From contig JWZX01002444.1 of NCBI GenBank assembly GCA_001275005.1, forward strand, positions 1 to 32,572: a stretch of 32,572 nt of DNA. Reading direction: 5' to 3'. The notes below the pieces were generated by a model, which did no database searches, had not been told where the DNA came from, and saw only the letters and a program-made list of their open reading frames with translations. The DNA comes from Chrysochromulina tobinii (taxonomy: Eukaryota). Made by a program: the position numbers and the translations under genes. This document shows, piece by piece, positions 785 to 18,327 of this stretch (position 1 is the stretch's first letter; each line of letters begins with the position of its first letter).

Positions 785-2977
785 TCAACGCCCCCGGATC
801 GCCACGACAACGCCCATCAACGCAACCGCCGCGAGGCCGACGAGCGCCGCCACGGGCACCTGAGGGGGCCATCACACGCAACGTCAGGAAGGCGCGCCGT
901 CACGGGCACCCGGACAAGGCCGGCGGGTACGAGCGCCGTCACGGGCACCCGGACGAGGCCGGCGTGATGCGGGTTCGAGCGCCGTCGCGGGCACCTCGTA
1001 CGGGCTGGGTGAGCCTTTCTTCTGCCCTTCGAACGTGGCCGAGAAGTCGAGATCCGCGAGATTGCCCACACGCATCGCCGAGCGCATCGCCGCATCCGCG
1101 GTCGCGGCCACGGGCAAGCGAACGCCCACCTGGCGCGGCAACCAGAGGCGATCAGTGGCAATCAGCGCCCATCAGTGGTAATCAGCGCCTACTAAGCGCC
1201 CATCAGTGGTAATCAACGTCTATCAATCGCAATCAGCTCCTACTAAGCGCCCATCAGTTGCAATGAACGCCCATCAATCGCAATCAGTCGCAATCACCTG
1301 CCGCCCGAGGGCGCATGCGAGGCGCCTGATGAGGGACGCCATCAGTGGCAATCAGTGGCAATCACCTGCCGCCCGAGGGCGCATGCGAGGCGCATGTCCT
1401 TCTGCGCGTGTTTGAGGGGGAAGTTTGGCACGTGGTCGCCTGCGAACATCTCGGCGTCATTGAGCTCATTATGGCAATCGGCGCTCCTCAATCGCAATCA
1501 CGGTGGCAATCACCTGTGAGCATCTTGGCGCCCTTGAGCTCATTATGGCAATCGCAATCACGGTGGCAATCACCTGCGAGCATCTTGGCGCCCTTGAGCT
1601 TGAGGAGCGGCGCGCCGCATACGCCGAGCTCGAGCACCTGCAGCAGCAGCAATCAATGCCAATCAGCGCCGATTAGGGCCCATCATGGCAATCAATGGCA
1701 ATCAATGGCAATCAATGACAATCAGCGCCGATTAGGGCCCATCATCGGCCATCAATGGCAACCAATGGCAATCATCGGCCATCGTGCGCACACGCCGAGC
1801 TCTAATCAATAAATGGCAATGGCAATCAATGGCAATCACCGGCCATCGTGCGCACACGCCGAGCTCGAGCACCTGCAGCAGCTGAGACGCAATCCATCGC
1901 AATCAATCGCAATCAATTGCAATCAGTTGCTATCAGCGGTCATCACCTGCAGAAGCTGGGACGCGTCCAGACCAGCGGCCTGTGCGAGGCTGAAGCCCTC
2001 GCCGTACGCAGCCATCATCGAGCCCATGACCTGTGATGAGGGACGCCATCAGTGGCAATCAGGATGCCATCAGTGGCCATCATCGACGTCATGACCTGCC
2101 ATCACGAGGCCATCACGAGGCCATCACTCGGCGGTGGTCGGGGAGGCAATCAGTGGCAATCAGTGAGATCATTAGCAAGGCCATCGACGAGGTCATGCGA
2201 GATCTGTCGTGCCAACCCGTGTCAATCCGTGCTAATCAGGGAGGTCATTAGGGAGGTCATTAGGGATCAATAGGGAGGTCATGCGAGATCTGCCGTGCCA
2301 ATCCATGCTTATCAGTCGCGAGAGCCCCCCTCCCATGTTCACGCAAAGCTTCATGCAATCCATGCCTATCAGTGCCCATAAGTGGCAATCCGTGCCAGTC
2401 GAGAGAGCCCCCCCCTCACCATGTTCACGCAGAGCTTCATGCGGGTGCCTGCGCCCACCGCGCCAAAGAAGAATTTGGCCTTGCCCATCGCGTCGAGCTC
2501 CTTGGCGCACTTGGCATAGAGAGCCTCGTCGCCGCCGCAGAGGAAGATGAGCTGCCCCTGCGCGGCAGGGCCCTTGGAGCCCGAGACGGGCGCCTCGAGG
2601 AACTGGCCGCCCTTGGCGATCACCTGCGTTGAGAGTCTCTGCATGTCTTCAACAGCGAGCGTCGCGCAGTCGACGACGCATTTGCCGGCGACGACGCCGT
2701 CGAGGATGCCGCCCTCCATCTCGTACACTTCCTTGCAGGCCTCGGGCGTCGAGAGCATGACGTACGTGATCTCGCACGCCGCGATCACCTCGGCAGGCGT
2801 CTCTGCCACCGTGATGTGGTCTGCACCCGCATCCATAAGCAACTTCTCCGGCTTTGCGGGCGTCCGATTCCAGATCACGAGCTTGCGCTTGCCCGTGCCG
2901 ATGAGCTGCCGTGCCATGCCGTCGCCCATGATCCCCAAGCCGATGAAGCCGATGGGTTCGGGGGCGACTGCCGACAT
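785..2977 (-). CDS. GLYR: Glyoxylate/succinic semialdehyde reductase (beta-hydroxyacid dehydrogenase family), 6 exons, about 329 aa, with C-terminal hydrophobic tail
   Basis: Exons 2420-2977, 1947-2030, 1574-1637, 1366-1439, 995-1129 and 785-859 are joined by GT-AG introns that keep frame. Motifs: GFIGLGIMG Rossmann fold, WNRT, EAPVSGSKGPA, KLCVNMVMGSMMAAYGEG, FPLKHAQKD, DLDFSA. The last exon is less certain; without intron 5 the ORF stops at 884. Confidence 0.88.
1130..2419 (-). repeat. GLYR introns 1-4 (2031-2419, 1638-1946, 1440-1573, 1130-1365) filled with degenerate TGATTGC/TGATGGC repeats and exon-end copies
   Basis: Many GCAATCA/GCCATCA units on the + strand, interrupted by the short exons. 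Confidence 0.9.
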
Positions 2978-3343
2978 GGCTGCGTTTCGTGTTTTGACTC
3001 CTTGGATGTGAACGTTAACACGACAGACGCGACAGCCGGTGAAGTGTGAACGCGCTGTCTTGCGCTTTGTACGTGGACTAAAGGTACGTGCGGACCATCG
3101 AAAAATGAATATTTGAGGGGCTCAGCACGTAAGCCTACCAAGGAGGAATTGTTGTGGATGAAAGGAATCATCAAGGATGTAATCAATCGAATAGGTAAAT
3201 TCTCCCACAACGCGCACAAGCACTGCCTCTGGCTCTGTCTCCAAGCGCGCGCATTCAAGCCAGGCTCGTCCCTCAACTTACGGGTTATCCAGCACGTGAG
3301 GGACCACGGGACAGCGTGACTCTCCCTGGGACCACTCTCACTC

Positions 3344-5304
3344 TCACGACAGATGCTTCAGGTATTTGAGGTTCTTTTGCAGCAGCTCGTTCATGGCCGC
3401 GATGTTGTGCTCGAACTTCGCGTCCATCTCGCCCAGCTTCCGATCCAAGTCATCGAGTTGCTTCTCCACACGGGTACGGGTATCGAGCATCTCCTGCGAC
3501 CCGATGGGCCATCATAGGCAATCAGAGGGGCCTTCCGTCGCAATCAAAGGGGCGATCCTTGGGGCAATCAGACGCAATCAGATGCAATCAGAGGGGCGAT
3601 CCTTGGGGCAATCAGACGCAATCAGATGCAATCAGACGCAATCAGATGCAATCAGAGGGGCGATCCTTGGGGCAATCAGACGCAATCAGACGCAATCAGA
3701 GGGGCGATCCTTGGGGCAATCAGACGCAATCAGATGCAATCAGAAGCAATCAGAGGGGCGATCCTTGGGGCAATCAGACGCAATCAGACGCAATCAGACG
3801 CAATCAGATGCAATCAGAGGGGCGATCCTTGGGGCAATCAGACGCAATCAGACGCAATCAGACGCAATCAGACGCAATCAGAGGGGCGATCCTTGGGGCA
3901 ATCCGTGGCAATCAGAGGGAACAGAAGCATCAGCAACTCTCATCATCAACAGTTCATCAGCAGCTCATCAGCTCATCATCAGCAGCACACGCGCCTGGAA
4001 CAGCATGTGGAGCAGGTCATTCGGCTTCATCAACTCCTTCCGCACGCCTCGGAACCTACGCATGGTTCGGCAGAAGCGCCCATCGGAGTGTAACAGCTCA
4101 TTGCCCAGCAGCGCCGACGACTGTGAAGACGACTGTGAACGCTGCAGCCGCTCGAGGTATGACGCCCACGCCGCTTGGATGTAGAAGGCGGCGCACTGCT
4201 TCAACCTCGCATTCGATTCGGACACGGCGATCAGGTTGTTCACGCGGATCTCGGCGTTGCTCAGCTCCATCTCGCGGATGGTCGTCATCACCAGCAGCGC
4301 TGCCATCAACGCACCCCAGCCATCAGTGCCATCATTATCGCTATAATCATCATTAGTGCCATCATTAGTGCCAATCATTAGCGACAATCACCTGCCATCA
4401 GTGCACCCCAGCCACATGCCATTGTGGAGACGAACCGCCCTAAGCCCGTCTGCGGGTAAAAGTCGCCATAGCCAAGGCCTGTCATGGAGACCAGCGCCAG
4501 CCAGAAGTCATTAAGGTAATGGTCGAGGCCCTTGTCGACACGCCGCTCGGCGACCTGTGATGAGGGACGCCATCAGTGGCACTCAGGTGCCATCAATGGC
4601 CCTCAGTGGCCCTCGGTGGCACTCACCTGCAGCGTGAACCCGAAGCAGAGCAACAGCAGCGCCGTGGTGCCTCCGAGGAGGCGGAAGGGGTAGCGCTGGT
4701 ACATGACGCGTATAGAGAGCCACGTGGTGAGGGGCATGTGGTTGATGTTGGCGTACGCGCGCGCCGACTTGGCCGTCAGCCCCGCCAGGTAGGGCATGTA
4801 GTGCACAATCAGCGCGAGCCGCGCGAACATCATGCCCACCGTAAGCAGCTCGTCGGTGGCGAGCGTGGTGGGCAAGGTGCTTCCGCGACGCAGGTCGTAA
4901 TAGGAGACAGTGATCTCGACGTTGAAAAAGGGGACCGGGTGAATGAGGCACAGCAGCGCCTCGGGCAGCATGCTCCACTCGCTCAGCGACACGAAGATTC
5001 CCGACGAGAGCAGCGTATCCTGTGGAAGCAGCGCGTTCGTCGCCTTGAGCAACACAAACTTGCGCCGGTAGTAGATGAGCAGGAAGGCGAGCAGCCAGAG
5101 GGTCGAGAAGGACACGAGCAGTTTCAGCACGTCACACGTTGCGTCCGACTCGCCCCCATGCGCCCAGAGCCAGTAGACCTCGGCGATGGCGAAGCCGACG
5201 CCGAGAGCTGCTGCGATGAGGACCACGGTGAAGTTGCGTTTGAGCCTGAGCTCGATCTGCCGTAGACCACCGTAGCTCGCGGAATAGCTTGAAGCCTTGT
5301 TCAT
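3344..5304 (-). CDS. Small-conductance Ca2+-activated K+ channel-like protein (SK/KCNN-like), 4 exons, about 431 aa
   Basis: Exons 4627-5304, 4392-4554, 3995-4299 and 3344-3493. It has several TM helices, EALLCLIHPVP, a weakly charged S4, a pore region FWLALVSMTGLGYGDFYPQTGLGR, a calmodulin-binding-like segment (ELSNAEIRV...AAFYIQAAW) and a C-terminal coiled coil. The start codon and intron 3 donor are approximate. Confidence 0.82.
3538..3918. repeat. Higher-order intronic minisatellite in K+ channel intron 3
   Basis: Seven GGGGCGATCCTTGGG blocks separated by 3-5 GCAATCAGA(C/T) units. Confidence 0.95.
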
Positions 5305-5518
5305 GCCTGTTCGCACCAATAGCAGGTGACTCAAAGGCCTCCGGGTGCGGCTCTGAGGGGCGGCGGCAGCGGCTCCCGCTCCTGGGCCGCCTATCCAGAC
5401 GCGCTTGCCACCACAGCGGCCAAACTTTCTCGATTTGGGAGTGGGTGTTCCGATTGATTTGATTGTCCTGACGTCAACACAACGCTCATTCGCTCACGTC
5501 GCTCTGGCCTACATGTAC

Positions 5519-7676
5519 TCACTTGTCGACGCCCGTGCCGTTGATGTACGCGAGCAGGGCATCGGCGCACGCGTCCTTCAGATTGCATGCAGGCGCGCGC
5601 GCGTAGCTCTTGCCATGCACACGCCACAGGCGCTCGAAGAGAGACGCGTTCGTCGCCGCGGCCGCCGCGACACCCTCCCAGCTCAGCGGCGACAGGTCGG
5701 CCATCCCAAAGTCTACCGGCAGCTCATATTCGCGCGCGTACAGCGCAGCGCCCGCGGCGTTCGCAGCCGCAATGTCGGCGACGTACGTCGTCGACGCGGT
5801 GGGCGCCCATGACGACGCGTCGAGGGCCCACAGGCGCAGCGCGCTATTGGCCGGTGGGTACGATTCCACAACGGCCGGGACGGAGTGGAGCATGAACAGT
5901 GGCGAGCCGCCGCTGCCGCCCGGCCCGTCTTCGGTGCATGCGCCCGGCACGGCGCTCGCACGGGCCACACACACGGCGGGGCTGGCCGGGTCGGGCGGCA
6001 TGTTGGCGACGCTCGTGCGGAAGCAGCACTGCGCGCCCGTCGTCCCTTCGACCGGGTAGAAAGTGAAGCCGGCACACGACGCCTGGGCGCCACACACGCC
6101 TTCACACAGCGACAGCGTCGCATTCTCATCGAGGGGGGGGGGCGTGAGTGGGCACCACGCGTCGCCGCCCGCGAGCCCCTGTGATGAGGAGGCAATCGGA
6201 GGCAATTAGGGAGGCAATCAGGGGTCATTAGGGAGCTACTCAGGAGCACAATCACATGCAATCAAGGGTCAGTCGGGGGTTGCTCAGGAGCACAATCACC
6301 TCGCCAAACACATCTCCGACGTCGAGGTTGCCGCCGCTGCACCACTTGACAGCGCGAGTGATGCGCCACTGGATGGGCGCAGAGCCATTCGGCGCCGTCG
6401 CGGGCGTACACGAGCGCACGATGGCGGCCTCATCAACATGCACGTGCCCGAAGAAGCCAGCGCGCACCTGCATGCAATGAGTGAGGCCATCAGTGGCAAT
6501 CAGTGGCAATCAGTGGCCATCGAAAGGCCAGCGAGGTGGACGTGTCTGAGGGGCCTGCGCGTACGACGTTTGGGAAGCGCAATCAGAGGGCAATCAGAAC
6601 GCAATCAGAACAGAGCGCAATCAGAACGCAATCAGTGGCAATCAGAGCGTACGACGTTTGGGAAGCGCGTCACGAGCGCCCGGAAACGTGAGAAGAGGCC
6701 AGGTACCCAAGCGCCATGTGGCGGGATGTGGCCGAGTAACACGACTGCGTCGCCCGCGGCGCTCGCCTCCGTGAGCACGCTCTCGAACCACTCGAACTGC
6801 TTCTCACCCGCGATCGAGGCCGCCGACGACGCATTCTTCAGGAGTGGGTTGACGGTCGACCAGTACAAGGTATTGAGGCCAACGACCTTCAGTGGGGAGA
6901 TGAGGGCGCTGTGGTGAGCACTTGCATGCAGAGGGCACGGAGCAGGGTATTGAGGCCAACGACCTTCAGGCCGGGCTCCGGCGAGGTCGCGTAGTAGCCT
7001 CCGGTGCGTAACGTCTCGATCGCCGCCACGTCGGCCGCGAACGTCGCTCCAAAGAGCTCAACGAGTGCGTCGTACAGCCACGCCTGAGTGGGGCCCGCGT
7101 CGACGACGTCATCAATGGTCATCAGAGGTCATCAGAGGTCATCAGAGGTCATCAGCATGCCTGAGCGGGACCTGCGTCGACCACGTCGCCGGGTACGGTG
7201 TCGTGGTTGGCCACGACGCTGAAGACGGCCGCGCTCGGGAATGCCGCCCGCAAGCTGCTCATGCTGCGGTTCACGAGGCTCAGGACCTGCGCTTGCGCCG
7301 GGCTGCTCGAGCTGCACGCCGCTGCTGCGCCAGCCTCGGAAAAGTCCCCTGTGTGAAACACTAAGCGCACGCCAGGCGCTGTGGACGCCATGAACTCGAC
7401 GGCCGCGCTCCAAAGCGCGACGGGCGTCGCACAATTGTCCTGCGGCTCGCCGAACGGCCCTGCGCCGCCCGTCACCCTGGGCACACACGCGGCGGGCATC
7501 CGAGCGCACGCGGCGTGGCTTTCGCAATAGCACCCGGCGCCCAGCGGGATGCCCTCCTCGTAATAAGGGTCTAAGTGCGAGTCCGTGACGTGCCACGCGA
7601 GCACCGGCGCATCCGGCGCGGCCACAGCGAATGCCGCCGCTGCCAAAAGCGTCGCCATCGACAGGTTCTGTTTCAT
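5519..7676 (-). CDS. Secreted acid sphingomyelinase-like (SMPD1/SMPDL3 family) metallophosphoesterase with inserted PAN/Apple-like module, 5 exons, about 565 aa
   Basis: Exons 7161-7676, 6964-7083, 6653-6886, 6300-6467 and 5519-6178. It has a signal peptide and the metallophosphoesterase motifs DSHLD, TGDF, ANHD, GGYY, GLNT, QFEW, GHIPP and GHVH. The C-terminus resembles acid sphingomyelinase (EYELPVDFGMADLSPLSW). Confidence 0.82.
6869..6969. repeat. Perfect 24-nt direct repeat spanning both ends of a 77-nt intron
   Basis: GGTATTGAGGCCAACGACCTTCAG at 6869-6892 and 6946-6969. Confidence 0.97.
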
Positions 7677-7878
7677 GCCTTCAACACTTTCGCTTCGTCA
7701 CTCGACTTCGGACCCGCAAACGCCGACGGCGAAAAGCTGTGAACGAGCTGGAACATGTACGATTGCGTTTGTTTGGATTCGGTTGGACCAGTCTAATGTG
7801 TGACGACTCTTTTTGGAGGAAATTTTCCCACGAACTTTCCCACGCTTCCATTCACGACGACGTGTCGGGCTGGCTCTC
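7677..7878. promoter_or_regulatory. Putative bidirectional promoter region
   Basis: About 200 bp of lower-GC sequence between the divergent start codons of the sphingomyelinase-like and pyruvate kinase genes. Positional evidence only. Confidence 0.4.
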
Positions 7879-9978
7879 ATGCTCCGCCTGCCGGCTCGCC
7901 TCGCGCGCACGCAGCTGTCACGAGCCTCGCGGCAGCTAAGCACGGCCAGCTCCGCGCCGCTCACCAAGCTCGTCTCCACCATTGGTCCTGCCTCCGAGGA
8001 GGCCGAGCCGCTCGCTGGGTGCGTCGCGGCGGGCATGAACGTGATGCGAGTCAACTTCTCGCATGCGACGAAGGACGAGTTCCACCTGCGGCGCACCAAC
8101 CTGCGCGCTGCGCCCGGCGGCGAGTACGTTGCCGTCATGCTCGACACCAAGGGGCCGGAGATCCGCATGGGCGGCCTCAAGGTCTGCAAGGAGACGGGCA
8201 ACCGCAAGGCGAAGATGAAGCTCACCACGGGCCAGACGCTCACCCTGACGAACGACAAGGCGTTCGACGGCGCGGGCGACGAGCGGACGATCTACGTGGA
8301 CTACCCGCGCCTCGCGGAGGTCGTCGAGCCTGGCACCACCGTGCTGCTCGACGACGGGCTCATCTCGCTCGAGGTGGTGAGCGCCGCCGACGGCAAGGTG
8401 ACGACGACGGTGCTCAACAGCAGCGAGATCGGCGAGCGCAAGGGTGTGAACATCCCGGGCGTGGTGACCGGGCTGCCCGCCATGTCCGACAAGGACCTCG
8501 AGGACATCAGCTTCGGCATCGAGCACGACATCGACATGGTCGCCGCTTCGTTTGTTCGCAACGCGGCGGGCGTGCACCAGATTCGCGAGCATATCCTCAA
8601 GTGCCACGAGAAGTACGCGGCGAACGGTGGGATGGACACGCCTCCCCCGATGATCATCTCGAAGATCGAGTCGACCGAGGCTCTCGACAACCTCGCTGAG
8701 ATCATCGAGGCGAGCGATGGCATCATGGTGGCTCGCGGCGACCTCGGGGTCGAGGTACCCCTCGAGAAGGTGACGTCCGACCACAAACATGGAGTTTGAG
8801 TGCTTCGAAGTGCTTCGGATGAGCTCTGATTGCCTCGCCTCATCAGGTCGTGACGTGGCTCTGATTGCCTCGCCTCATCAGGTCGTGACGTGGCAGAAGG
8901 ACATCGTCGCGATGACCTTGGCCGCCGGCAAGCCGGTCGTCGTCGCGACTCAGATGCTCGAGACGATGCAAAAGAACCCGCGCCCTACCCGCGCGGAGGT
9001 AGCCGATGTAACGAATGCGGTGCTCGACGGCGCGGATGCCGTGATGCTCTCGGGCGAGTCGGCCAACGGACTGTACCCGACCGAGTCCGTCGCCATGCAG
9101 GTGATTGCAATTGATTGACGCTGATGCCCACCTTGATTGCCACTTGATGGCCCCCTTGATGACACCTTGATGGCCACCTTGATTGCCACTTGATGGCCCC
9201 CTTGATGACCCCCTTGATGGCCACCTTGATTGCCACTTGATGGCCCCCTTGATGACACCTTGATGGCCACCTTGATTGCCACTTGATGGCCCCCTTGATG
9301 ACACCTTGATGGCCACCTTGATTGCCACTTGATGGCCCCCTTGATGGCCATCTGAGTGCGCACGTGCATTGCATGCAGGCACGCATCGTGGCGGAGGCCG
9401 AGGCTTGGGCGAGTGCCCGTGGGCTCGCCCCAGGAGGCGTCGAGCCTCAGCTCGCGCCCGTATCTCGCTCGATCTCGGCGACCGAGTCGGACTTTGATGA
9501 GGACCAGGAGGAGGAGGAGATGTACCGTCGCGAGCTGACCATTCCGGATAGCATGAGCGCCGCCGCGTGCTTCCTCGCCGCGCGCGTCGGGGCACGTGCG
9601 ATCGTCGTCTTTGAAGACGGATGGGGCGAGACTGCTCGTAACGTCTCCAAGTTTCGTCCGACGGTGCCCATCGCGGCGCTTTGCGACTCTCTCAAGGTGT
9701 GCCGCCAGCTCTCGATCTCGCGTGGCGTCGTGCCGTTACTCGTCGAGCCGCAGCCCGAGATCGCGGGAGATCAGCCCGAGGGCGAAGACGAGTTCCGTAA
9801 CGACATGTTCTCGCTCGACACACTGGATGCCTCCGATGCCTGCTCGCTGGTCGCGGAGCGCACCGGGCTGCTCGAGCCAGGCGACCTCGCGATCGTGCTC
9901 GTCGGGGAGACTATCAGCGTTGAGGTCGTCATGGAGCCGATGGAGTGGGAGGGCGACGAGGCCGAGAGAAAGCCCTGA
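7879..9978 (+). CDS. PYK: Pyruvate kinase with predicted mitochondrial presequence, 3 exons, about 569 aa
   Basis: Exons 7879-8769, 8882-9100 and 9379-9978. Motifs: TKLVSTIGPAS, RVNFSH, LDTKGPEIR, SKIES, IMVARGDLGVE, ATQMLETM, PRPTRAE, DAVMLSGES, SKFRP. Confidence 0.95.
9126..9351. repeat. Intronic minisatellite in pyruvate kinase intron 2
   Basis: About 46-nt unit CCACCTTGATTGCCACTTGATGGCCCCCTTGATGACACCTTGATGG, repeated about 5 times and built from TTGAT-core subunits. Confidence 0.95.
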
Positions 9979-10967
9979 ACCCAACGCGTGAGCCCTAATA
10001 TGGAGTGGGAGGGCGATGAGGCCGAGAACTACGGGCGACGTTTCGGCCGCGAAAGCCGCACTCGCCGCGAGGAGGCCTCGTCTCCGAGCGCTCAGCGCCG
10101 AGATGAGCGCCGAGATGATTCTCAGAACACGCGACTGATTCTCAGCCGAACATGCAGCGCACGGCATAAAGCTGGGGCGGTAGTATTGCCTGATTGTCGT
10201 CTGTCTCTCCCAACCCGTTGGCGTGTTCTCTGTTCTGACTTCTGTGTCCTCAAACGTAAAAGGAACTACACCCGAGGCCGAGCGGTATAGCCCCCGGCCT
10301 TCCGCATAGCTCCGCTCCGCATCGGGCGTACACCCATGCGTACACCGTACTGAATCTCGAATCTCGAATCTCGTCCCGCGCCGCTCTAAGCGGAAAGCGC
10401 ACGGGCCACGGCGAGAGCGTCCGCCGTTTGCGGCGCGACACGCAGACCCCGCTCGTAAATATGTCATAATAGTAAATTATCGCGAACCGTTTACGTGTAC
10501 GCGGGCCCCATGTGACGCGGCCCGCGCCAGAGGGCGCGCAGGTTTTTCCCGCCCCCGCCCGGGCCCGCGGCGGGCATACACGCATACTGCCGTACGTATT
10601 CGAAGGAATTCCTATGAGATCCGAATACGGGCGTATGTGCGGACGAGTGGGCCCCGAGGGCTCTCCACTCCGTCCAATCAAAGGTCATCAGCGGCAATCA
10701 GTGCAAGTACCCTGCCCCGTGGGCTCTCCACTCCGTCCACTCCCCGCCAGCTTCCATGCAGCATGCCATACTCATACGTGATTCTCGAGGCGTGATTCGT
10801 CGGTTTCGTCGAGATGCAGCATGCCATGCTCATGCGTGACGCTCCTCGTCGGCGTCGTCAGTACGATCTCCCTTGATCTCCCTTGATCGCCCTTGGCTCT
10901 CAATGACACTCCTGCTCTCGTTGTGGCATGCATGTTCATCTGCTTAAGACCGTTGCTTGCATGGTCA

Positions 10968-12753
10968 TCATCTTAAGATTGAGTACTCCGCCCCCGGCGT
11001 TCTCCCCACCTCCCCCGGCATCAGAGGCGTTGGGCGTACCGGCCCGAAATCGGCAAAGATGGGCGCCCACGCCGTCGAGTCGAAAGGCACATCCTTCATG
11101 ACGCCGTTCGGTCCGAATTCCGCATCGGAAGGCGCCGCCCCGTCCTCGGAAATTGGCGGCAGCCAGGGCGCGGGCAGCTCCTTGCGCAGCAAAGCCGTCC
11201 ATGAGAACCCAACGAACCATGGATCAAGCTGCAGACCGAGACGCGAGGCACGAGCGGCGCTCAGCGACCATCGACCGACAAGGGTTTCGTCAGTGGGGAT
11301 GCCGGTAGATAAATCTCCGAGCTCAGCGGCCATCGAGCGGCACTCTGCGGCCATCAGAGGCCATCAGAGGCCATCAGCGGCCATCAAGAGGCCATCAGCG
11401 GCCATCAGCGGTCATCAGCGGTCATCAGCGGTCATCAGCGGCCATCAGCGGCCATCAGTGGTCATCAGCGGCCATCAGCGGCCATCAGCAGCCATCAAGA
11501 GGCCATCGAGCGGCCATCAGCGCACCTGCAGAGCGAGGAAGCCTTCGGGGCCGCATCCAATCCGTTCAGTCTCTCGCGCGCGTAAAAGTCCTATAAGGAA
11601 AGCACCGGCGGCTCTCGAGAGGTTCTCGGCGGTGCGACTCACCTGAGCGAGGAAGTTCCATATTAGGGAGTCAAGGTGGACCCTAAGTTCCATATTAGGG
11701 AGTCAAGGTGGACCCTAAGTTCCATATTAGGGAGTCAAGGCGGGAGCCGAAATGACAAAGACTCAGGGGGGGAGAGGGAAGCAATCCGCGCCGAGATGAG
11801 GGAAGCAATCCGAGGGCTCGTGGATGAGCTCTGATGAGGGAAGCAATCCGAGGGCTCGTGGATGAGCTCTGATGAGGGAAGCAATCCGAGGGCTCGTGGA
11901 TGAGCTCTACCTGTCGTTGAAGCCGCTCCGCGGCTTCGTGTCCTCCGCGCGTATACTGTTCGATAAGCGCGAAGATATCTTGAGCGGAGCGCCCCTCGAA
12001 GGGGGGGCGCCCGGTGAGCATCTCATGCAGCAGCACCCCCAGCCCCCACCAGTCCGCCGCCGTCGAGCGACCCTTGCCCGAGACGACCTCGGGCGGCGCG
12101 TACTCATCGGTTCCGCATTTGGTAAAGGTGCGTGACTCGGAGACGCACTTGGCAAAGCCGAAGTCGCAGAGCTTGACGTAACCGTCGCCGCCGATGAGCA
12201 CGTTCTCGAGCTTCACGTCTCGGTACACGTACCCACGCGAGTGGATGTGACGAAGCGCGAGCGCCACCGTCGCCGTGTAGAAGCGCGCGTGGTCCTCGCG
12301 CACGCCGGTCGGAAAGAGATCGAGGAGGCCGAAGAGGTCTCCTCCGGACATGAGCTCGAGGCAAAAGTAGAGGGAGGAGTGGTCCTGGAACGTGCCGAAC
12401 AGCCGCGTGATGAATGGGTGTCGGCAGTCCATCAGCGCCTCCTTCTCGGTGAACACACGCATCGCCGACTTGCGCGGCAGCGCGGCCAGCCGGCCCTTGC
12501 GTACCTGCTTGACCGCGTAGCGCAGGCCGCTGTGCGAGTCCTCGGCGAGCCACACGCCCCCCTGCCCGCCTAGCCCTATGGGCCGCCGGAAGCGCATGGT
12601 ATGCAAGCTAAAGTTGCTCTCCTGGTGTTCGTCGGCCGCCTTGAGAATCTCTTCGGTCACGTCGTCGAGATCCTCTATCTTCAGCTGGTCTACGAGCGAA
12701 GCGGCAGCCATGGCATCGGAGAGGTCCTTGCTCGACGACATATTGCGCCGCAT
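10968..12753 (-). CDS. AGC-group Ser/Thr protein kinase (PKA/PKG-like catalytic domain), at least 3 exons
   Basis: Exons 11911-12753, 11526-11642 and 10968-11228. Motifs: GLGGQGGV, YAVK, HPFITRL, YRDVKLEN, DFG, TKCGTDEYAPPE, DWWGLG, and an AGC tail (DPWF..FSW..LLRKELPAPWLPP, FADF). The start and extreme 3' end are uncertain. Confidence 0.88.
11348..11520. repeat. 10-nt tandem repeat in kinase intron 2
   Basis: G(C/T)CATCAGCG-type units in tandem. Confidence 0.95.
11653..11908. repeat. Two tandem arrays in kinase intron 1
   Basis: A 32-nt unit AAGTTCCATATTAGGGAGTCAAGGTGGACCCT (about 3 copies, 11653-11740) and a 38-nt unit GATGAGGGAAGCAATCCGAGGGCTCGTGGATGAGCTCT (3 copies, 11795-11908). Confidence 0.95.
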
Positions 12754-13861
12754 GCTACAAATGTTGGCGAGCCGACTCGACAGCCCCGCTTCTGGACCTT
12801 CCGCGCGCTCGCGACCGTCGCGTGTCCACAACGCGGAGAGGTTCCCCACGAAACCGAGATGAGACCTCAACGAAGGTGGAGTGACGAAAGGAGGAACTTA
12901 ATGAATGACGCGAGATTGGAAATGAAATGGCGGTGACCAATCACAAGAGCGGAACGGAAAAGTAGGGAAGAAAATGACCTCGCAGGTGCACGGGGCGCGG
13001 GGCTGCCCGGCGGGGGCCTTCGCCTGAAAAATGCCATCACAATAAATTTATACCGTACTTCAACCCCACGCACGCGGCGCAGGGCTCGCGCTCAAAGCGT
13101 TATGGGCGGCCGTCCTGGAATCCGAGGACCTCCTGCCGCACATCCTGGCGCCCTCGACTGCATCGGTTGGCGGTTCCCTTGACGTGTCGCCTGTGGCGCA
13201 CGATTTCCCTTGTTTGTCCATGCTCCCCTCTTTGAACCGGACCGTGCAACCGTCCGGTACCGCAACTGAGAACTGGAGGATCTGAAGATCTGAACAGCAC
13301 TTTTTCAACACATTTCCCGTCTGGGCATTACATGTATTCTCACGACTCTCGAGACCTACCACAAAAGCCCATCCCCGGATGGCAGCGGTCGACTGACCGC
13401 ACTTTACATGTAAAAAGGCATCACGTGGCGAATCACATCTCGAATTCTCGATACTCTCTAATTCACAGACAGCCCTTGTGGTCGACTCTCAACGTCTCAA
13501 GTCATCAAGCTCACCGCAGGTGTGGAATTGTTCTGTAGGTGTGAATGAGGACTCCCCGCAGCAAGCAAGCAAGCTAATTAGTCGACACACACACAGGCGT
13601 GCCGACCATCAGGTCCGGCCGAGCTTGCATGCATATATATACGATATATCGCCAATATTACCATATCGGGCATCGTAATGAACGCTGAGTGCGTCGCATG
13701 AGAGCTTCGAGAAAGCTTCGAGAACGCTCTCGCTCTCGTGCGCTGCGCTCTGTCGTGTTGTTGTTGTTGCGGACAGCACGACCCTGAGTTGGCCCAGTGA
13801 CGGAGCACACTCGCGCTTCATGCTCTGCGAACTGGCCCACGTGTGACCTTCACCACAGCGA

Positions 13862-15508
13862 ATGAGCGACCCGATTTGCCCCGGAATAACCGCCGCAGGG
13901 AAGTTGCTCGGGCGCGAGGAGGCCGCAGCGGGCGTCTTCTCGCCAGGCTATGCGCATCCTGTGCCGACGGACGACGCTCCTCCATGCTTCCGCTGCTGGG
14001 CACTGCCCGACGCATGCCTCGAGGTGCTTCCTACGAGACTAACATCAAAGGGTGCGTACGACGATCCACGAAGCAACGTGATCGGCGTGAAACTCTACCC
14101 GATAAACTCGCGGCCCTTTCGGCTCCATGTCGCCGGCCTCACCCATGCAGAGCTGCGCACGCGGCTCGATCGGCTCAAGGCGTTTGTCATGGACCCACTG
14201 AGGTCCGAGCTGCTCCGTCACCTTGAGTCAGACGTTTTTTGGATTGACCGCGCCAGTGCCAGCTTGCGCTGGCCACTCTACCCTGCGGGTGGGTCGGGCA
14301 ATGCCTCTGGCAATGCAGGCGCTGCAGGCGGTGACGACGAGCTCGTCATGATCTGGCCGAGATGGGAAAAGGGCTATGGCGACGTGATCGCGAACACGCT
14401 GCTACCTTTTGGCGAGATGCTGCGACGCGGCACGCCACCGCGCCACTTGGCGCTCTCGGGCATGCGTCACGCCACGCTGCTGCCGCCTCTCCGAGCGGCG
14501 ACGGTTTCACTGTGTGGAATCGAGAGAGACAATGAACCTCTGCTGCCTCGGTGCGTGTCCACTTGCTGGCGGGCTGTGCGCATCTGCGCGCCCAATTTTG
14601 CCGAGTCGACTGCGGACACTTGGCTCGATACTATAGCCCTTGACGCAGCCGCCGCCGCTGTGGATGTCGCCGCACCTACCGCCGCCAGCGCTGCCATTGC
14701 AGTTGCCGCCGCCGTCGCCGCCGCAGCAGCCACAGATGCCGCACCTACCGCCGCCGCACACATCGCCGCCGCCGCCGCCTCCTTGCCGCCACCGCCCGTC
14801 ACACGGCGCTCGACACGGCGCGAGCTTCGCGTGCTCATCGCGTCGCGCTCAGGTCGACGTCTTCTAGCTAACGATGCAGCGCTCAGTGCGGCCTGCGACG
14901 GCGTCGAGCTCGAAGGCACGCGACTCCGCTGCTCGCTTCTGCCGGCCTCGCTCCCGCAGGCCGCCAAGATTGCGCGCTTGCGCGAGGCCGACGCCTACGT
15001 GTGCGTGTGGGGAGGGGACACCGTGCATGCTCTCCATATGCGCCAAGGCTCGGCGGTGATCGAGCTGCGCAACGAAGGGTTCGCGAAGGGTGCGCCCCAC
15101 ACTTGGCTCGATCTGCACAAGCGCTGGGTGACGCGCTATGCCGGTCCATCGTTCAGCCGGCCACTCCACTTCACGTCCATCACGCTGCCTGCAAACTGGA
15201 CTATCCTTCGCGCAGCCGAGCACGAGTGCTTTGTACACAACGCCAAGGAGCGGAAGAAATTGATCGCGTCCAACGCCAAGGAGATTCCACAGGACGATTG
15301 GCTGTGTTACTGGAACGCTGACTTTAACGTGCCCTTCGAGCAGCTGCGCCCCGCGCTCGAAAAGCACATCCAGCGGCTCAAAAAGCTCGAGCCCCACCTC
15401 TGGGGCAGCGGCGTCAATACCACCAAGTCATTCAGAAGAACCAAAAGGAAAAAGAAGGCCAGAACAAGAACCTCCTCTGATCCTCGCTCTCCTGAAACAC
15501 ATGGGTGA
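13862..15508 (+). CDS. Glycosyltransferase family 61-like protein
   Basis: 548-aa ORF. The C-terminal segment RRLLAN...KIARLREADAYVCVWGGDTVHALHMRQGSAVIEL matches the GT61 pattern (..AD..VGVHGAGLTN..FM..G..VIE), recognised from memory. Confidence 0.65.
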   Translation: MSDPICPGITAAGKLLGREEAAAGVFSPGYAHPVPTDDAPPCFRCWALPDACLEVLPTRLTSKGAYDDPRSNVIGVKLYPINSRPFRLHVAGLTHAELRTRLDRLKAFVMDPLRSELLRHLESDVFWIDRASASLRWPLYPAGGSGNASGNAGAAGGDDELVMIWPRWEKGYGDVIANTLLPFGEMLRRGTPPRHLALSGMRHATLLPPLRAATVSLCGIERDNEPLLPRCVSTCWRAVRICAPNFAESTADTWLDTIALDAAAAAVDVAAPTAASAAIAVAAAVAAAAATDAAPTAAAHIAAAAASLPPPPVTRRSTRRELRVLIASRSGRRLLANDAALSAACDGVELEGTRLRCSLLPASLPQAAKIARLREADAYVCVWGGDTVHALHMRQGSAVIELRNEGFAKGAPHTWLDLHKRWVTRYAGPSFSRPLHFTSITLPANWTILRAAEHECFVHNAKERKKLIASNAKEIPQDDWLCYWNADFNVPFEQLRPALEKHIQRLKKLEPHLWGSGVNTTKSFRRTKRKKKARTRTSSDPRSPETHG

Positions 15509-15652
15509 GAGCGTTAGGGGCCGGGCTAGTTCGTTTTAGTTTTGAAAGTTACTCGCTTTAAGCGAAGTAAAGTAGGATCTGAGGCCTCTGTCACTCTCGA
15601 ACACTCTCGTCTTCCGTTCGATCCTTAGTGCATAGGTTTACCGTGGCTGCTT

Positions 15653-16336
15653 TTAGTCACCAGGGAGAGGGTGCTCGCTGCCCCCCTCGGTGGCCATGTA
15701 CTCATCGAACTGCTTTCTCAGGTTTGCGTACAGTTCCGAAGGCGGATCGCCTGCCGCCTGTTGGCGCAGCTCTTCGCGGAGGAGAGTCTGGATCCGACCA
15801 TTCCAGCTCGTCCAAGAGTAGCCATTGCCTGTTCGTCCGGTCCATGAGGTCGACGGAGCTCCGGTGATCTGGACGTCACCCGTCCCGAGCAGCTCGCGAC
15901 GCAGATCTTCGTTTGCGAGCAGCTTGGCTCGACAAATACGCAGCATCACCTCGATCTTGACAGCATCCCAATCCGAGCGCAGGTCGGCCCTGGCACCCTC
16001 GCGCCATACGCGCATGCCATGGTTGTGGTCTGTCTCGCCAGCGAAAGGAAGCATCCGCTGTATCCGTTGACGCCCGCTCGCACCGTGAGCCGTAGTTTTG
16101 AGAAACTTGCATGCCTGATAGCACTGCTCGACAGACTGCCACGTGTCACCGTCGAAATGGAATTGGGCGACTTGAAAGTTATCAGTGCACGGAGGGCCAC
16201 TGATGCGCTTTCGTGGCGCGACAGCGGGCGTCAACGCCACATGTCCACCAAGTGCCTGTGCGTCGGTGCCGTGGCTAAGTGCTACAGCGTCTGCAGGCAA
16301 TGGCTCCTCGATGAGAAGATAGCATGGGCCACCCAT
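15653..16336 (-). CDS. NADAR-domain (YbiA-like) N-glycosidase
   Basis: DNF...FHFDGDTWQSVEQCYQACKF and RSDWDAVKIEVMLRICRAK...LRRELLGTGD are typical NADAR segments. The first in-frame ATG is at 16336. Confidence 0.8.
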   Translation of the reverse strand: MGGPCYLLIEEPLPADAVALSHGTDAQALGGHVALTPAVAPRKRISGPPCTDNFQVAQFHFDGDTWQSVEQCYQACKFLKTTAHGASGRQRIQRMLPFAGETDHNHGMRVWREGARADLRSDWDAVKIEVMLRICRAKLLANEDLRRELLGTGDVQITGAPSTSWTGRTGNGYSWTSWNGRIQTLLREELRQQAAGDPPSELYANLRKQFDEYMATEGGSEHPLPGD

Positions 16337-17207
16337 GTGCGCGAGGTGCTCGTGTGAAAAAAGAATCAAGCGTCGCCGCGGGCGGTACCGGTAAAAAGAC
16401 ACCGGGGGGAGCCGGGACACTCACGGACGGTACCGGTACCTCTTCTTGAGTGACGAATTGTAACCGATGGCTATGAAGTGCTGATCAAACACCCTCCGAT
16501 GAGTATGTGTGATAATGTGTGAGTATGTGTGGTACGTTGGTCGTTTCGTAGGACGTTCAGATATCAGGAGTTAATGCGGAGGCGTGCATGTCGGAGGGTG
16601 TACCGGTATGTTCAAAAACACCGGAGGGAGCCGGAACACACGGGGGACAGACACACGGATCAGTGAGGACAAACAACCTCAGAACCGCGACCACACCATG
16701 CGGCTCACTGTTCGTTGTTCGAATCACTGTTACGCGTTACGGGTCACGGCGGCCGTCTCAACCGGTGATTCTGTGTGGGCACCCGGGGTTGGCGGTGACC
16801 GTGCTCGTGCGTAGGTGAGTTGGTTGGGTTCTTACTACGTAGATTCAATGTGCGAACCGGCACGCCGCCGTCGCCGCGTCGCGCAGCAGTGGCAGGAGTT
16901 ACGACCGGCACGGAGAGTGACCAGGGACGGGGTCTCGGCGGTCTGTCTAATCTTAGCTGTCAGGCGTTGCGTCTTTAGTTGTGTCCCCCGTTCGGCTCCC
17001 TGTTCGGTCTTTTTAGCGTTATTAAACACGCATATTCGTGTGCTAGCTTGCTTTCTTCAAGTCGTCTTCAACCCGGAACTGTATTGACTGAATTCGACCA
17101 CATAACGTTGCCCTCGTTTCGCCTCGCTGCATTGTTGAAATAGCGTGACGTTCGGTGCAATTGCTGCCTCCACGTAAGCACACGGTCGCGAGCACACATG
17201 GCGCACA

Positions 17208-18131
17208 TCAGCACGTCGTGCACTCAAGCATGGAGAAAGGGAAACACCGCGTTGCACCTCGAAATTCCTTGCCGATGCCAAATTTTGCGACGCAGCTGTC
17301 AATGTCCACCTCGAATCCTCTAGTATGGAGATCTCTTGCCGGCATGCGTAGCATCGCTGCCTCCTTTTCGGCAGGCCAGTGGCAGAAATCAGCAAAAGAA
17401 CGGTTCGTGTATTTCTCCATGAATCTTGTGGAGAATAGCACAGCGTGCCATCCACGATTTCCTGGTTGGCGCCCAGAGATGGGACTGAGCTCATGGTAAT
17501 GTGTCGAGAGCTGTTTCCCCATGACAGCTCGAAATGAGCCTAGGAGTGCAAGATCAACGTTCGTTGATCGATGCATGAAGTTCACTCCTTCGACGATTAT
17601 GCTGCGCGCAGCAAGCGCCGGAAGAGACGGTGCAAGGCAAGCGTCGTCTTCGAAACGCAGTAATGGCGCCTTGAAGTGGGCTAGTGCAACTCGGAACATA
17701 TCTTGTGCATTCACCCAGCTTGCCTGCTTGACGCACATGCTTGCCCTGTCTGCAACGATGCCGTTATCGCGGTATCCCGTACATGCCTTCGCTTCATGGA
17801 CTCGCAGCAATGTGGTGGCAGGCAGCGCCTGTTGTAATTGGCTGACCACCATCGCAGACAAGTTAGTTCGTGTGGTCAAGATTGCGGCATGAAAGTGTGT
17901 GACGTCTCCCGCGCTCTCACTTGCACTGAGAGCATGAGTGGGCTGGCTGCTCAAGGTACTCATGCCTCCCCTTTGTCGCACCTCTTCTCTCTCACTCCTG
18001 CAGGTCGCTCTCCCCAAGGCGTCGCACGCACCTCGCCCCACTCGCGGGCGAAGCCGCGTGAATACAATCGTTCTGTACTGTACCGTACCGGCAACTTTGG
18101 AGGTCCACACGAGTGCGCGTGAAGTGTGCAT
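17208..18131 (-). CDS. Putative GT-A glycosyltransferase (GT25-like); boundaries uncertain
   Basis: The motifs LLRFEDDA, DLALLG and GWHAVLFS occur in GT25-like order. GC content is lower than in neighbouring genes, and the N-terminus is unclear. Confidence 0.45.
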   Translation of the reverse strand: MHTSRALVWTSKVAGTVQYRTIVFTRLRPRVGRGACDALGRATCRSEREEVRQRGGMSTLSSQPTHALSASESAGDVTHFHAAILTTRTNLSAMVVSQLQQALPATTLLRVHEAKACTGYRDNGIVADRASMCVKQASWVNAQDMFRVALAHFKAPLLRFEDDACLAPSLPALAARSIIVEGVNFMHRSTNVDLALLGSFRAVMGKQLSTHYHELSPISGRQPGNRGWHAVLFSTRFMEKYTNRSFADFCHWPAEKEAAMLRMPARDLHTRGFEVDIDSCVAKFGIGKEFRGATRCFPFSMLECTTC

Positions 18132-18327
18132 GGACGCGGAAGCAGACGAGGAAGCCGACTAGCCCATGGCGAAGTCGCCAAGTATGGCATCCGGTGTGTT
18201 TGAACGGTACCAGGTACGTTGAACCACGACGACGCGTCGAAGATACAAGATACATGGTGACGTGGAACGCTCCGCTTCACGTCCAAGCGGCCCGCGCTTG
18301 CCCATCCGATACTGGCAGTAGGTGCTC

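What the first reader, a model, noticed from the sequence alone, without database searches (positions are those of the whole stretch)
860..11910. Systematic 'exon-echo' introns: introns carrying copies of their own flanking exon ends
Seen: at least 10 of 16 reconstructed introns, across four unrelated genes, contain copies (about 13-33 nt) of the adjacent exon end or start. Examples are 2334-2356 vs 2420-2442, 1852-1884, 1514-1540, 1440-1466, 1298-1325, 4300-4322 vs 4392-4414, 7084-7110 vs 7161-7187, 6946-6969 vs 6869-6892, 6554-6580, about 8847-8859 and three copies in 860-994. In several cases the copy itself supplies the working splice site: the acceptor AG is the duplicated exon-terminal AG, or the donor GT is the duplicated exon start. 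Known: tandem duplication of an AG|GT site is a proposed but rarely observed route of intron gain. Inference: an active mechanism duplicates a variable-length target and inserts repeat filler, creating or enlarging introns. Candidates are templated break repair, slippage, or an element with variable target-site duplication.
Basis: partly seen in the sequence, partly recalled or inferred. Interest (0 to 1): 0.9.

Follow-up and report, generated by a model that had tools for sequence, protein, structure and literature searches.

The report
Algal introns born by re-copying exons
In a freshwater haptophyte alga, 10 of 16 introns in this stretch carry a copy of their own neighbouring exon end, and related strains appear to lack one such intron and two such added pieces, so a likely ongoing copy-and-fill repair process seems to be both creating and enlarging introns.

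Summary
Ten of 14 introns in four genes echo their own junction (each p≤0.004); two more introns, in a kinase gene, do not. RNA contigs support the junctions and short-read DNA contigs hold the copies. The usual unit is an 18–28-nt duplication around 33–69 nt of a 10-nt filler rich in sense-strand branch-point-like motifs (88 sense, 2 antisense). New here, inferred from read-through proteins of other strains: intron B2 is missing from an otherwise matching allele on a 14.3-kb contig; the 88-nt echo unit of C3 is missing in a sister lineage; the A1 echo is missing in one allele. So the process is recent and enlarges old introns; it probably also creates new ones. Against the all-new reading, A1 and A2 positions also carry introns in other lineages, and the B2-less allele could be a loss. 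Best mechanism: microhomology-guided template switching (0.5); rival: an introner with long target duplications (0.25). The scan noted a 15-bp case on another piece of this genome (e1-2577349, unchecked). New variant of duplication/break-repair intron gain.

The parts
785..2977 (-). Gene A, glyoxylate/succinic-semialdehyde-reductase-like dehydrogenase, 329 aa, five introns, all with echoes
   Evidence: Clean frame and gapless alignment to homologues; RNA pieces; transcript contig L002
2031..2419 (-). Intron A1; echo 2334-2356 of the exon end plus the intron start with a dead donor, between 17-nt repeats 2299-2316 and 2356-2373. Enlargement of an older intron
   Evidence: echo present in 5 and absent in 1 (P0140) of 6 read-through proteins that reach it
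1638..1946 (-). Intron A2; 40-nt copy of the joined exon-exon sequence at 1851-1890; the acceptor repeats the last 9 nt of the upstream exon approximately
   Evidence: same position holds an intron in L032
1440..1573 (-). Intron A3; two 27-nt exon-end copies; 1440-1466 is the working acceptor, 1514-1540 ends in an internal CAG|GT site
   Evidence: L002 lacks exactly 1514-1573 and keeps 1440-1513 (0 mismatches in 1064 nt)
1130..1365 (-). Intron A4; a complete 40-nt GT-AG filler unit (1326-1365) between two perfect 28-nt exon-end copies, then a second intron body
860..994 (-). Intron A5; three copies of the downstream exon start, the first gives the donor
4300..4391 (-). Intron B2 of an SK-type potassium channel gene; 69 nt filler plus a 23-nt exon-end copy that gives the acceptor; absent from some alleles
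   Evidence: RNA joint in 3 of 3 RNA runs; P0198 and P0207 read across it while keeping B1 and B3; Pfam
4555..4626 (-). Intron B1; no echo; shares its 3' end with A1 and with the 40-nt unit in A4
3494..3994 (-). Intron B3; GC donor, long filler array, no echo
7084..7160 (-). Intron C1 of an acid-sphingomyelinase-like gene; GC donor, 50 nt filler, 27-nt exon-end copy as acceptor
   Evidence: (piece end); echo alleles
6887..6963 (-). Intron C2; perfect 24-nt repeat across AG|GT supplies both splice sites, 53 nt insert
   Evidence: absent in P0182, whose contig may be DNA or RNA
6468..6652 (-). Intron C3; 88-nt unit (22-nt perfect repeat 6559-6580/6647-6668 plus 66 nt filler) added to an older intron whose donor already echoes the next exon
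   Evidence: sister proteins P0193 and P0194 match the model without the unit
6179..6299 (-). Intron C4; no echo
8770..8881 (+). Intron D1 of pyruvate kinase; perfect 35-nt tandem duplication across the acceptor, second AG used
   Evidence: RNA joint in 3 of 3 RNA runs
9101..9378 (+). Intron D2; filler array, no significant echo
11229..11910 (-). Two modelled introns of a protein kinase gene (11643-11910, 11229-11525); internal tandem repeats, no echo
   Evidence: model only, no RNA laid

Best explanation
The echoes are real short duplications, and they are likely made when DNA repair or replication synthesis switches to the genome's 10-nt intron filler, copies 30-70 nt, and re-enters the gene about 20-28 nt upstream through a few matching bases, which would enlarge an intron at its edge and create a new one at an AG|G site in an exon. 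Shown: unit anatomy, splicing, use of the copy as donor or acceptor, strand-specific branch-point-like filler. Inferred from read-through proteins: absence of B2, of the C3 unit and of the A1 echo in other strains. Inferred: the direction of these changes, the template-switch chemistry, and that the filler works as a ready-made donor and branch point so that selection keeps only inserts that splice out cleanly.
For: Eight dissected units have repeats of 18-28 nt and inserts of 33-69 nt, no two inserts alike. The repeat begins with bases that continue the filler unit: pooled match 10.0 against 2.8 for random coding positions, p=0.0008 over 8 units, test devised after seeing the pattern; only B2 (0.014) and C3 (0.050) reach 0.05 alone. 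The motif YNYTRAY (recalled branch consensus) occurs 88 times in 2718 intron nt, 2 times on the other strand, 8.9 in shuffles, and 1.2 per kb in coding sequence. 12 of 14 introns are phase 0. A B2-less model that keeps B1 and B3 gives a 141-aa frame equal to P0198 at 140 of 141 residues; P0198 is on 5 contigs, the longest 14,296 nt. Removing the 88-nt unit from C3 gives the sister's read-through tail. The same kind of unit occurs at edges of existing introns (A1, A4, C3, D1). L011 is intron-free over residues 2-301 (A1-A4) and L012 over 7-327 (A1-A5); P0018 reads through A1-A3.
Against: No DNA was obtained for P0198, P0207, P0140 or P0194. Deletion between the direct repeats would also give a B2-less allele. 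A1 and A2 positions are shared with other lineages. Shared 3' ends (A1, B1, the A4 unit) and about 350-fold summed depth at 1347 in run X1 (not a copy number) fit a mobile family. In-cis copying predicts a perfect copy at birth, yet B2 has two differences in 23 nt, both synonymous (chance 0.006-0.02 at 0.5-1% divergence, 0.19 at 3.5%). Phase-0 bias is partly built in: 19 of 23 AG|G sites of gene A are phase 0. Only 16 introns of one region were tested.
Confidence: 0.5

Rival explanations
1. A short mobile element (introner) carrying the donor and branch points inserts with an unusually long, variable target-site duplication that supplies the other splice site; later slippage scrambles its body.
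For: A4 is a complete 40-nt GT-AG unit between perfect 28-nt repeats. Its 30-nt end recurs at 97-100% in A1 and B1. High summed depth over it. The earlier scan note e1-2577349 claims over a hundred related introns with such a footprint (unchecked). Introners in a Chrysochromulina sp. genome bin co-opt the 3' site from their duplication (10.1101/2022.06.06.494994, passages).
Against: Inserts differ in length and sequence at both ends; B2 and C1 lack the shared 3' end; A1 and D1 duplicate intron sequence with no element; introns with the shared end (B1, C4) have no echo; junction microhomology. Duplications in the introner passages read are 4-8 nt. No transposase or reverse transcriptase was sought or found.
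Confidence: 0.25
2. Echoes are copied from another haplotype: at a site where one chromosome has the intron and the other lacks it, a broken end copies 20-40 nt of the intron-less allele and rejoins, leaving exon or junction sequence inside the intron.
For: Differences between echo and exon are 11 of 12 synonymous in A1, A2, B2, C1 and C3 but 0 of 7 in A3 and A5 (heterogeneity p=0.005). The one non-synonymous change in C1 is absent in 3 of 10 full-length alleles (P0180, P0186, P0188). B2-less alleles exist. Diverged haplotype blocks segregate (L001 is 96.6% identical over 3039-3592 but has 2 differences over about 690 nt of 2294-2980).
Against: Overall 11 of 19 synonymous is not beyond neutral ageing of both copies (p=0.09), and transition bias would weaken it further. 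A4, C2, D1 and the C3 repeat are perfect copies. One weak extra hit in A1 (score 12; 1 synonymous, 2 not) and repeated copies in A2 and A5 were left out of the tally. Ploidy is unknown.
Confidence: 0.12
3. The introns are old; slippage in their repeat arrays spreads over the boundaries, and intron-less alleles are losses by deletion between the repeats.
For: A1, C3 and D1 are shown or likely to be secondary duplications; A1 and A2 positions are shared with other lineages; echoes now mutate freely (A1 echo changed in P0129, P0131, P0133; two C1 echo variants).
Against: Boundary slippage cannot bring the upstream exon end to the far end of an intron (A3, B2, C1, C2). The more diverged P0207 also lacks B2. 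No relative showed an intron at A3, A4 or A5, though truncated proteins reveal only the first intron.
Confidence: 0.12
4. The copies are assembly artefacts.
For: No long reads; the DNA runs may be the source strain.
Against: Contigs of two runs and two other assemblies carry them; lake contig L001 carries the A1 echo; read-through proteins from many contigs carry the A1, B2, C1 and C2 echoes with their own variants; RNA uses the echo AG in B2.
Confidence: 0.01

Closest known systems
[quoted passage not shown]
   Same: Insert flanked by a repeat of the adjacent exon end; presence/absence in populations; later rounds enlarge young introns
   Different: Daphnia exon-intron repeats are 4-12 bp (33 cases among 90 new introns) and inserts are AT-rich; here 18-28 nt, in 10 of 16 unselected introns, with a GC-balanced branch-point-like filler
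Intron gain by tandem genomic duplication of AG|GT (PMC3443670 and PMC2891723, passages read; PMC3265369 seen as listing only)
   Same: Duplicated AG|G site supplies donor and acceptor; C2 is this geometry
   Different: The intron is not the duplicate alone: 33-69 nt of non-exon filler lie between the copies, and the event recurs at most introns of a region
Introners with target-site duplication: Chrysochromulina sp. genome bin, Symbiodinium, Polarella, Aureococcus (10.1101/2022.06.06.494994 passages; 10.1101/2020.10.14.339549 part 1 of 4; PMC12130899 passages)
   Same: One splice site carried by the insert, the other taken from the duplication; shared intron ends; phase bias
   Different: Duplications there are fixed at 4-8 nt in what I read and copies are alike end to end; here the length varies from 18 to 28 nt, bodies differ, and junctions show microhomology
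Recursive splicing at AG|GT ratchet sites (recalled; one search listed only stwintron papers)
   Same: Echoes in A2, A3 and A4 end in CAG followed by GT; transcript L002 has exactly the first 60 nt of A3 removed
   Different: One contig only; reverse-transcriptase switching between the 28-nt repeats or assembly collapse gives the same sequence

Membership tests
Break-repair intron gain (Daphnia type) | [quoted passage not shown] | tested here: met
   A3, B2, C1, C2; longer than the 4-12 bp reported
Break-repair intron gain (Daphnia type) | Intron-less alleles in the population | tested here: met
   B2: 2 of 7 informative proteins lack it, among 15 listed of 27 cluster members; protein-level evidence
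Break-repair intron gain (Daphnia type) | Intron-less state is ancestral | tested here: inconclusive
   P0207 is more diverged and lacks B2, but no DNA or tree; L011 and L012 lack gene A introns, while A1 and A2 recur elsewhere
Tandem genomic duplication | Duplicated AG|GT gives both splice sites | tested here: met
   C2; only one of the two sites in A3, A5, B2, C1, C3
Tandem genomic duplication | Intron consists only of the duplicated exon segment | tested here: not met
   33-69 nt of filler between the copies in 8 of 8 dissected units
Introner | Multi-copy family alike from end to end | tested here: inconclusive
Introner | Fixed short target-site duplication | tested here: not met
   18-28 nt, variable
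Introner | Autonomous partner (transposase or reverse transcriptase) | not testable with these tools
   No genome held
Recursive splicing | Intermediate spliced to an internal AG|GT | tested here: inconclusive
   L002, one contig

The most novel reading that the evidence does not exclude
This alga runs a transposon-independent intron factory: its introns are arrays of a 10-nt unit that is at once donor and branch point, a repair pathway pastes that filler while re-copying 20-28 nt of exon, sometimes from another haplotype, and the result is a ready-to-splice intron. Births and enlargements are segregating in lake populations now, across most genes.
Probability: 0.35. Interest if true: 0.85.

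Novelty: new variant of a known kind. Interest (0 to 1): 0.68.

Why it matters
Where new introns come from outside transposon bursts is a long-standing open question, and most known gains carry no readable trace. Here most introns of a region keep a long, readable scar, at least one appears present in some strains and absent in others, and the organism grows in mixed culture with RNA and lake sequence available. Duplication-and-fill intron gain could then be counted, polarised and perhaps caught in mutation-accumulation lines. It also warns that repeats at intron edges can be added after birth, so an echo alone does not date an intron.

Tried and rejected
Filler motifs found nothing in viral contigs; in genome contigs one motif found nothing and the other gave 8 prokaryotic records, none rich in the filler motif, taken as chance. 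The gene A query found no locus in viral contigs. Run X20 gave only short, unlike pieces. The 6-kb extension of L005 beyond the window showed one long reading region and no filler introns. L007-L010 and L017 are short, transcript-like and were not counted as intron-less genes. The six modelled introns of L032 have no echo (best score 10), so the habit is not general to this gene family. The search for C2-less genomic alleles returned only the sister's C3 read-through. The profile search over protein representatives was not run. A present-day coding role of the echoes was rejected: no in-frame alternative path was found by inspection, and amino-acid-changing variants segregate in the A1 and C1 echoes. 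An overall excess of synonymous differences was not established (p=0.09).
Full report
Setting. The window is a GC-rich eukaryotic contig. The best named relatives of gene A are Chrysochromulina transcriptome proteins at 71-78% and Prymnesium parvum at 68%, and the runs that hold the DNA are mixed-culture and freshwater samples. I call it a Chrysochromulina-like freshwater haptophyte; the species was not determined.

Gene models. Four genes give clean frames: A, a glyoxylate-reductase-like dehydrogenase (gapless alignment to homologues); B, an SK-type potassium channel; C, an acid-sphingomyelinase-like protein; D, pyruvate kinase. RNA contigs from a lake run and two culture runs give listed joints for B1, B2 and D1 and pieces that skip A1, A2, A4, A5 and C4; A3 and C3 follow from piece lengths; C1, C2 and D2 from piece ends; B3 from transcript-type proteins.

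The observation. Ten of these 14 introns match their own junction far better than other junctions or random coding windows (p 0.003-0.004 each); B1, B3, C4 and D2 do not. Two modelled kinase introns have no echo: 10 of 16 in all. The copies stand in contigs of two DNA runs and in two other assemblies and, with their own variants, in read-through proteins of other strains. They are not assembly artefacts, though no long reads were available.

Anatomy. Eight dissected units are a repeat of 18-28 nt around an insert of 33-69 nt. The copy is the working acceptor in A3, B2, C1 and C2, and the donor in A5, C2 and C3. In A1 and D1 the duplication spans a boundary and includes intron sequence. The filler is a 10-12-nt array. 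On the sense strand it holds the motif YNYTRAY 88 times against 2 on the antisense strand and 8.9 in shuffles; the motif is the branch-point consensus as I recall it, not one measured in haptophytes. The filler also often begins with a GT donor. The repeat tends to start with bases that continue the filler unit (pooled p=0.0008 over 8 units; post hoc). That fits re-annealing by microhomology better than a nuclease stagger.

Other strains. Gene callers that ignore introns read into them, so their proteins report intron state; this is indirect, since no DNA came with them. B2: of 15 listed members of a 27-member cluster, 7 start after B1 and end in B3; 5 carry B2 with the echo (one is the window's own) and 2 read straight across (P0198, 5 contigs, longest 14,296 nt, 140 of 141 residues equal to the B2-less model; P0207, 1 contig, more diverged). 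The other 8 end in B1 or are transcript-like. C3: sister proteins P0193 and P0194 (longest contig 22,912 nt) match the window's intron with the 88-nt echo unit removed. A1: the intron is in 29 of 29 read-through proteins (30 listed of 61 cluster members plus P0058, two transcript-type ones set aside); of 6 that reach the echo, 5 have it and P0140 lacks it. C2 is absent in P0182, but its 867-nt contig may be RNA and its tail does not match the window.

Other lineages. Of 34 loci for gene A, 6 are this species and 5 look like transcripts. L011 and L012, which fall among the haptophyte-like rows with moderate support, are on multi-gene contigs and intron-free (A1-A4 and A1-A5 covered). P0018, 73% identical, reads through A1-A3. 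Against recent origin: distant L032 has 1 of 6 modelled introns exactly at A2, P0044, P0045 and P0116 break off there too, and P0022 and P0043 break off at A1. These are old introns lost many times or sites gained repeatedly; I cannot tell which. None was seen at A3, A4 or A5, but truncated proteins show only the first intron.

An unexplained pattern. Echo-exon differences are 11 synonymous and 8 not. That exceeds change in the intron copy alone (p=0.0025) but not ageing of both copies (p=0.09). They sort by echo: 11 of 12 synonymous in five echoes, 0 of 7 in three (p=0.005). One weak hit and repeated copies of the same change were left out. Echoes are unconstrained today. Copying from a diverged haplotype, or error-prone synthesis filtered by selection, would explain it; the sample is too small to decide.

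Mechanism. Most likely (0.5): synthesis leaves the gene, copies filler, and re-enters about 20-28 nt upstream by a few matching bases. At an intron edge this enlarges the intron (A1, A4, C3, D1); at an exonic AG|G it would make a new one, with donor and branch points from the filler and the acceptor from the copy (B2, C1, C2, A3). Rivals: an introner with long variable duplications (0.25), copying from an intron-less allele (0.12), old introns with slippage and loss only (0.12), artefact (0.01).

Literature. Daphnia new introns have 4-12-bp exon-end repeats (PMC4202315, passages). Tandem duplication of AG|GT is an accepted route (PMC3443670, PMC2891723, passages). Nematode gains show 3-5-bp repeats (PMC9169325, passages). 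Introners in a Chrysochromulina sp. bin have 4-bp duplications and co-opt the 3' site (10.1101/2022.06.06.494994, passages); dinoflagellate classes in the part I read have 4-8 nt (10.1101/2020.10.14.339549, part 1 of 4). PMC12130899 does not mention haptophytes in its main text (passages); a single Replitron locus is reported in C. tobinii (PMC10288648, passages). Ten searches listed no paper describing 20-28-nt exon echoes in haptophyte introns. The library lacks most subscription journals, I read no haptophyte nuclear genome paper, and the unseen supplements of the introner surveys may list a family for this lineage. The scan's own note e1-2577349 reports a 15-bp case on another piece of this genome and favours a mobile family; I could not check it.

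Verdict. Real, recent and recurrent; it works like break-repair or duplication intron gain but with longer repeats, a pre-adapted filler and a second role in enlarging old introns. New variant of a known kind; interest 0.68.

Noticed in passing
window 3007-3041: A 35-nt stretch just upstream of gene A has extreme summed depth in DNA run X1 (90,186 in its bin against about 120 nearby), and lake contig L001 lacks about 31-39 nt there, between short TTCAC repeats: a possible polymorphic, very high-copy mini element.
   Followed up: partly
L002; window 1440-1573: A transcript contig has A1, A2, A4 and A5 spliced but only the first 60 nt of A3 removed, ending at the echo's CAG|GT: a stepwise-splicing intermediate, a template-switch artefact or a collapse.
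   Followed up: partly
window 9942-10028: A 29-nt repeat at the pyruvate kinase 3' end; removing 9961-10020 (GC-AG, 60 nt) extends the frame, so it may be an eleventh echo intron. No RNA was laid there.
   Followed up: partly
window 10651-10739 and 10753-10838: Two 26-nt repeats with 32-37 nt between them, the first spacer filler-like, outside any confirmed intron; possibly the same event where no splicing is needed (seen).
   Followed up: no
L001 against window 3039-3592: The lake contig is 96.6% identical here but almost identical over gene A exon 1: mosaic haplotype blocks.
   Followed up: no
P0182: After the shared part the protein runs into a tail that looks like filler read on the opposite strand; a chimeric contig or another insertion.
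   Followed up: no
window 12753-32572: The filler arrays seen in the first 12 kb are absent from this part; intron-rich and intron-poor genes are clustered.
   Followed up: no
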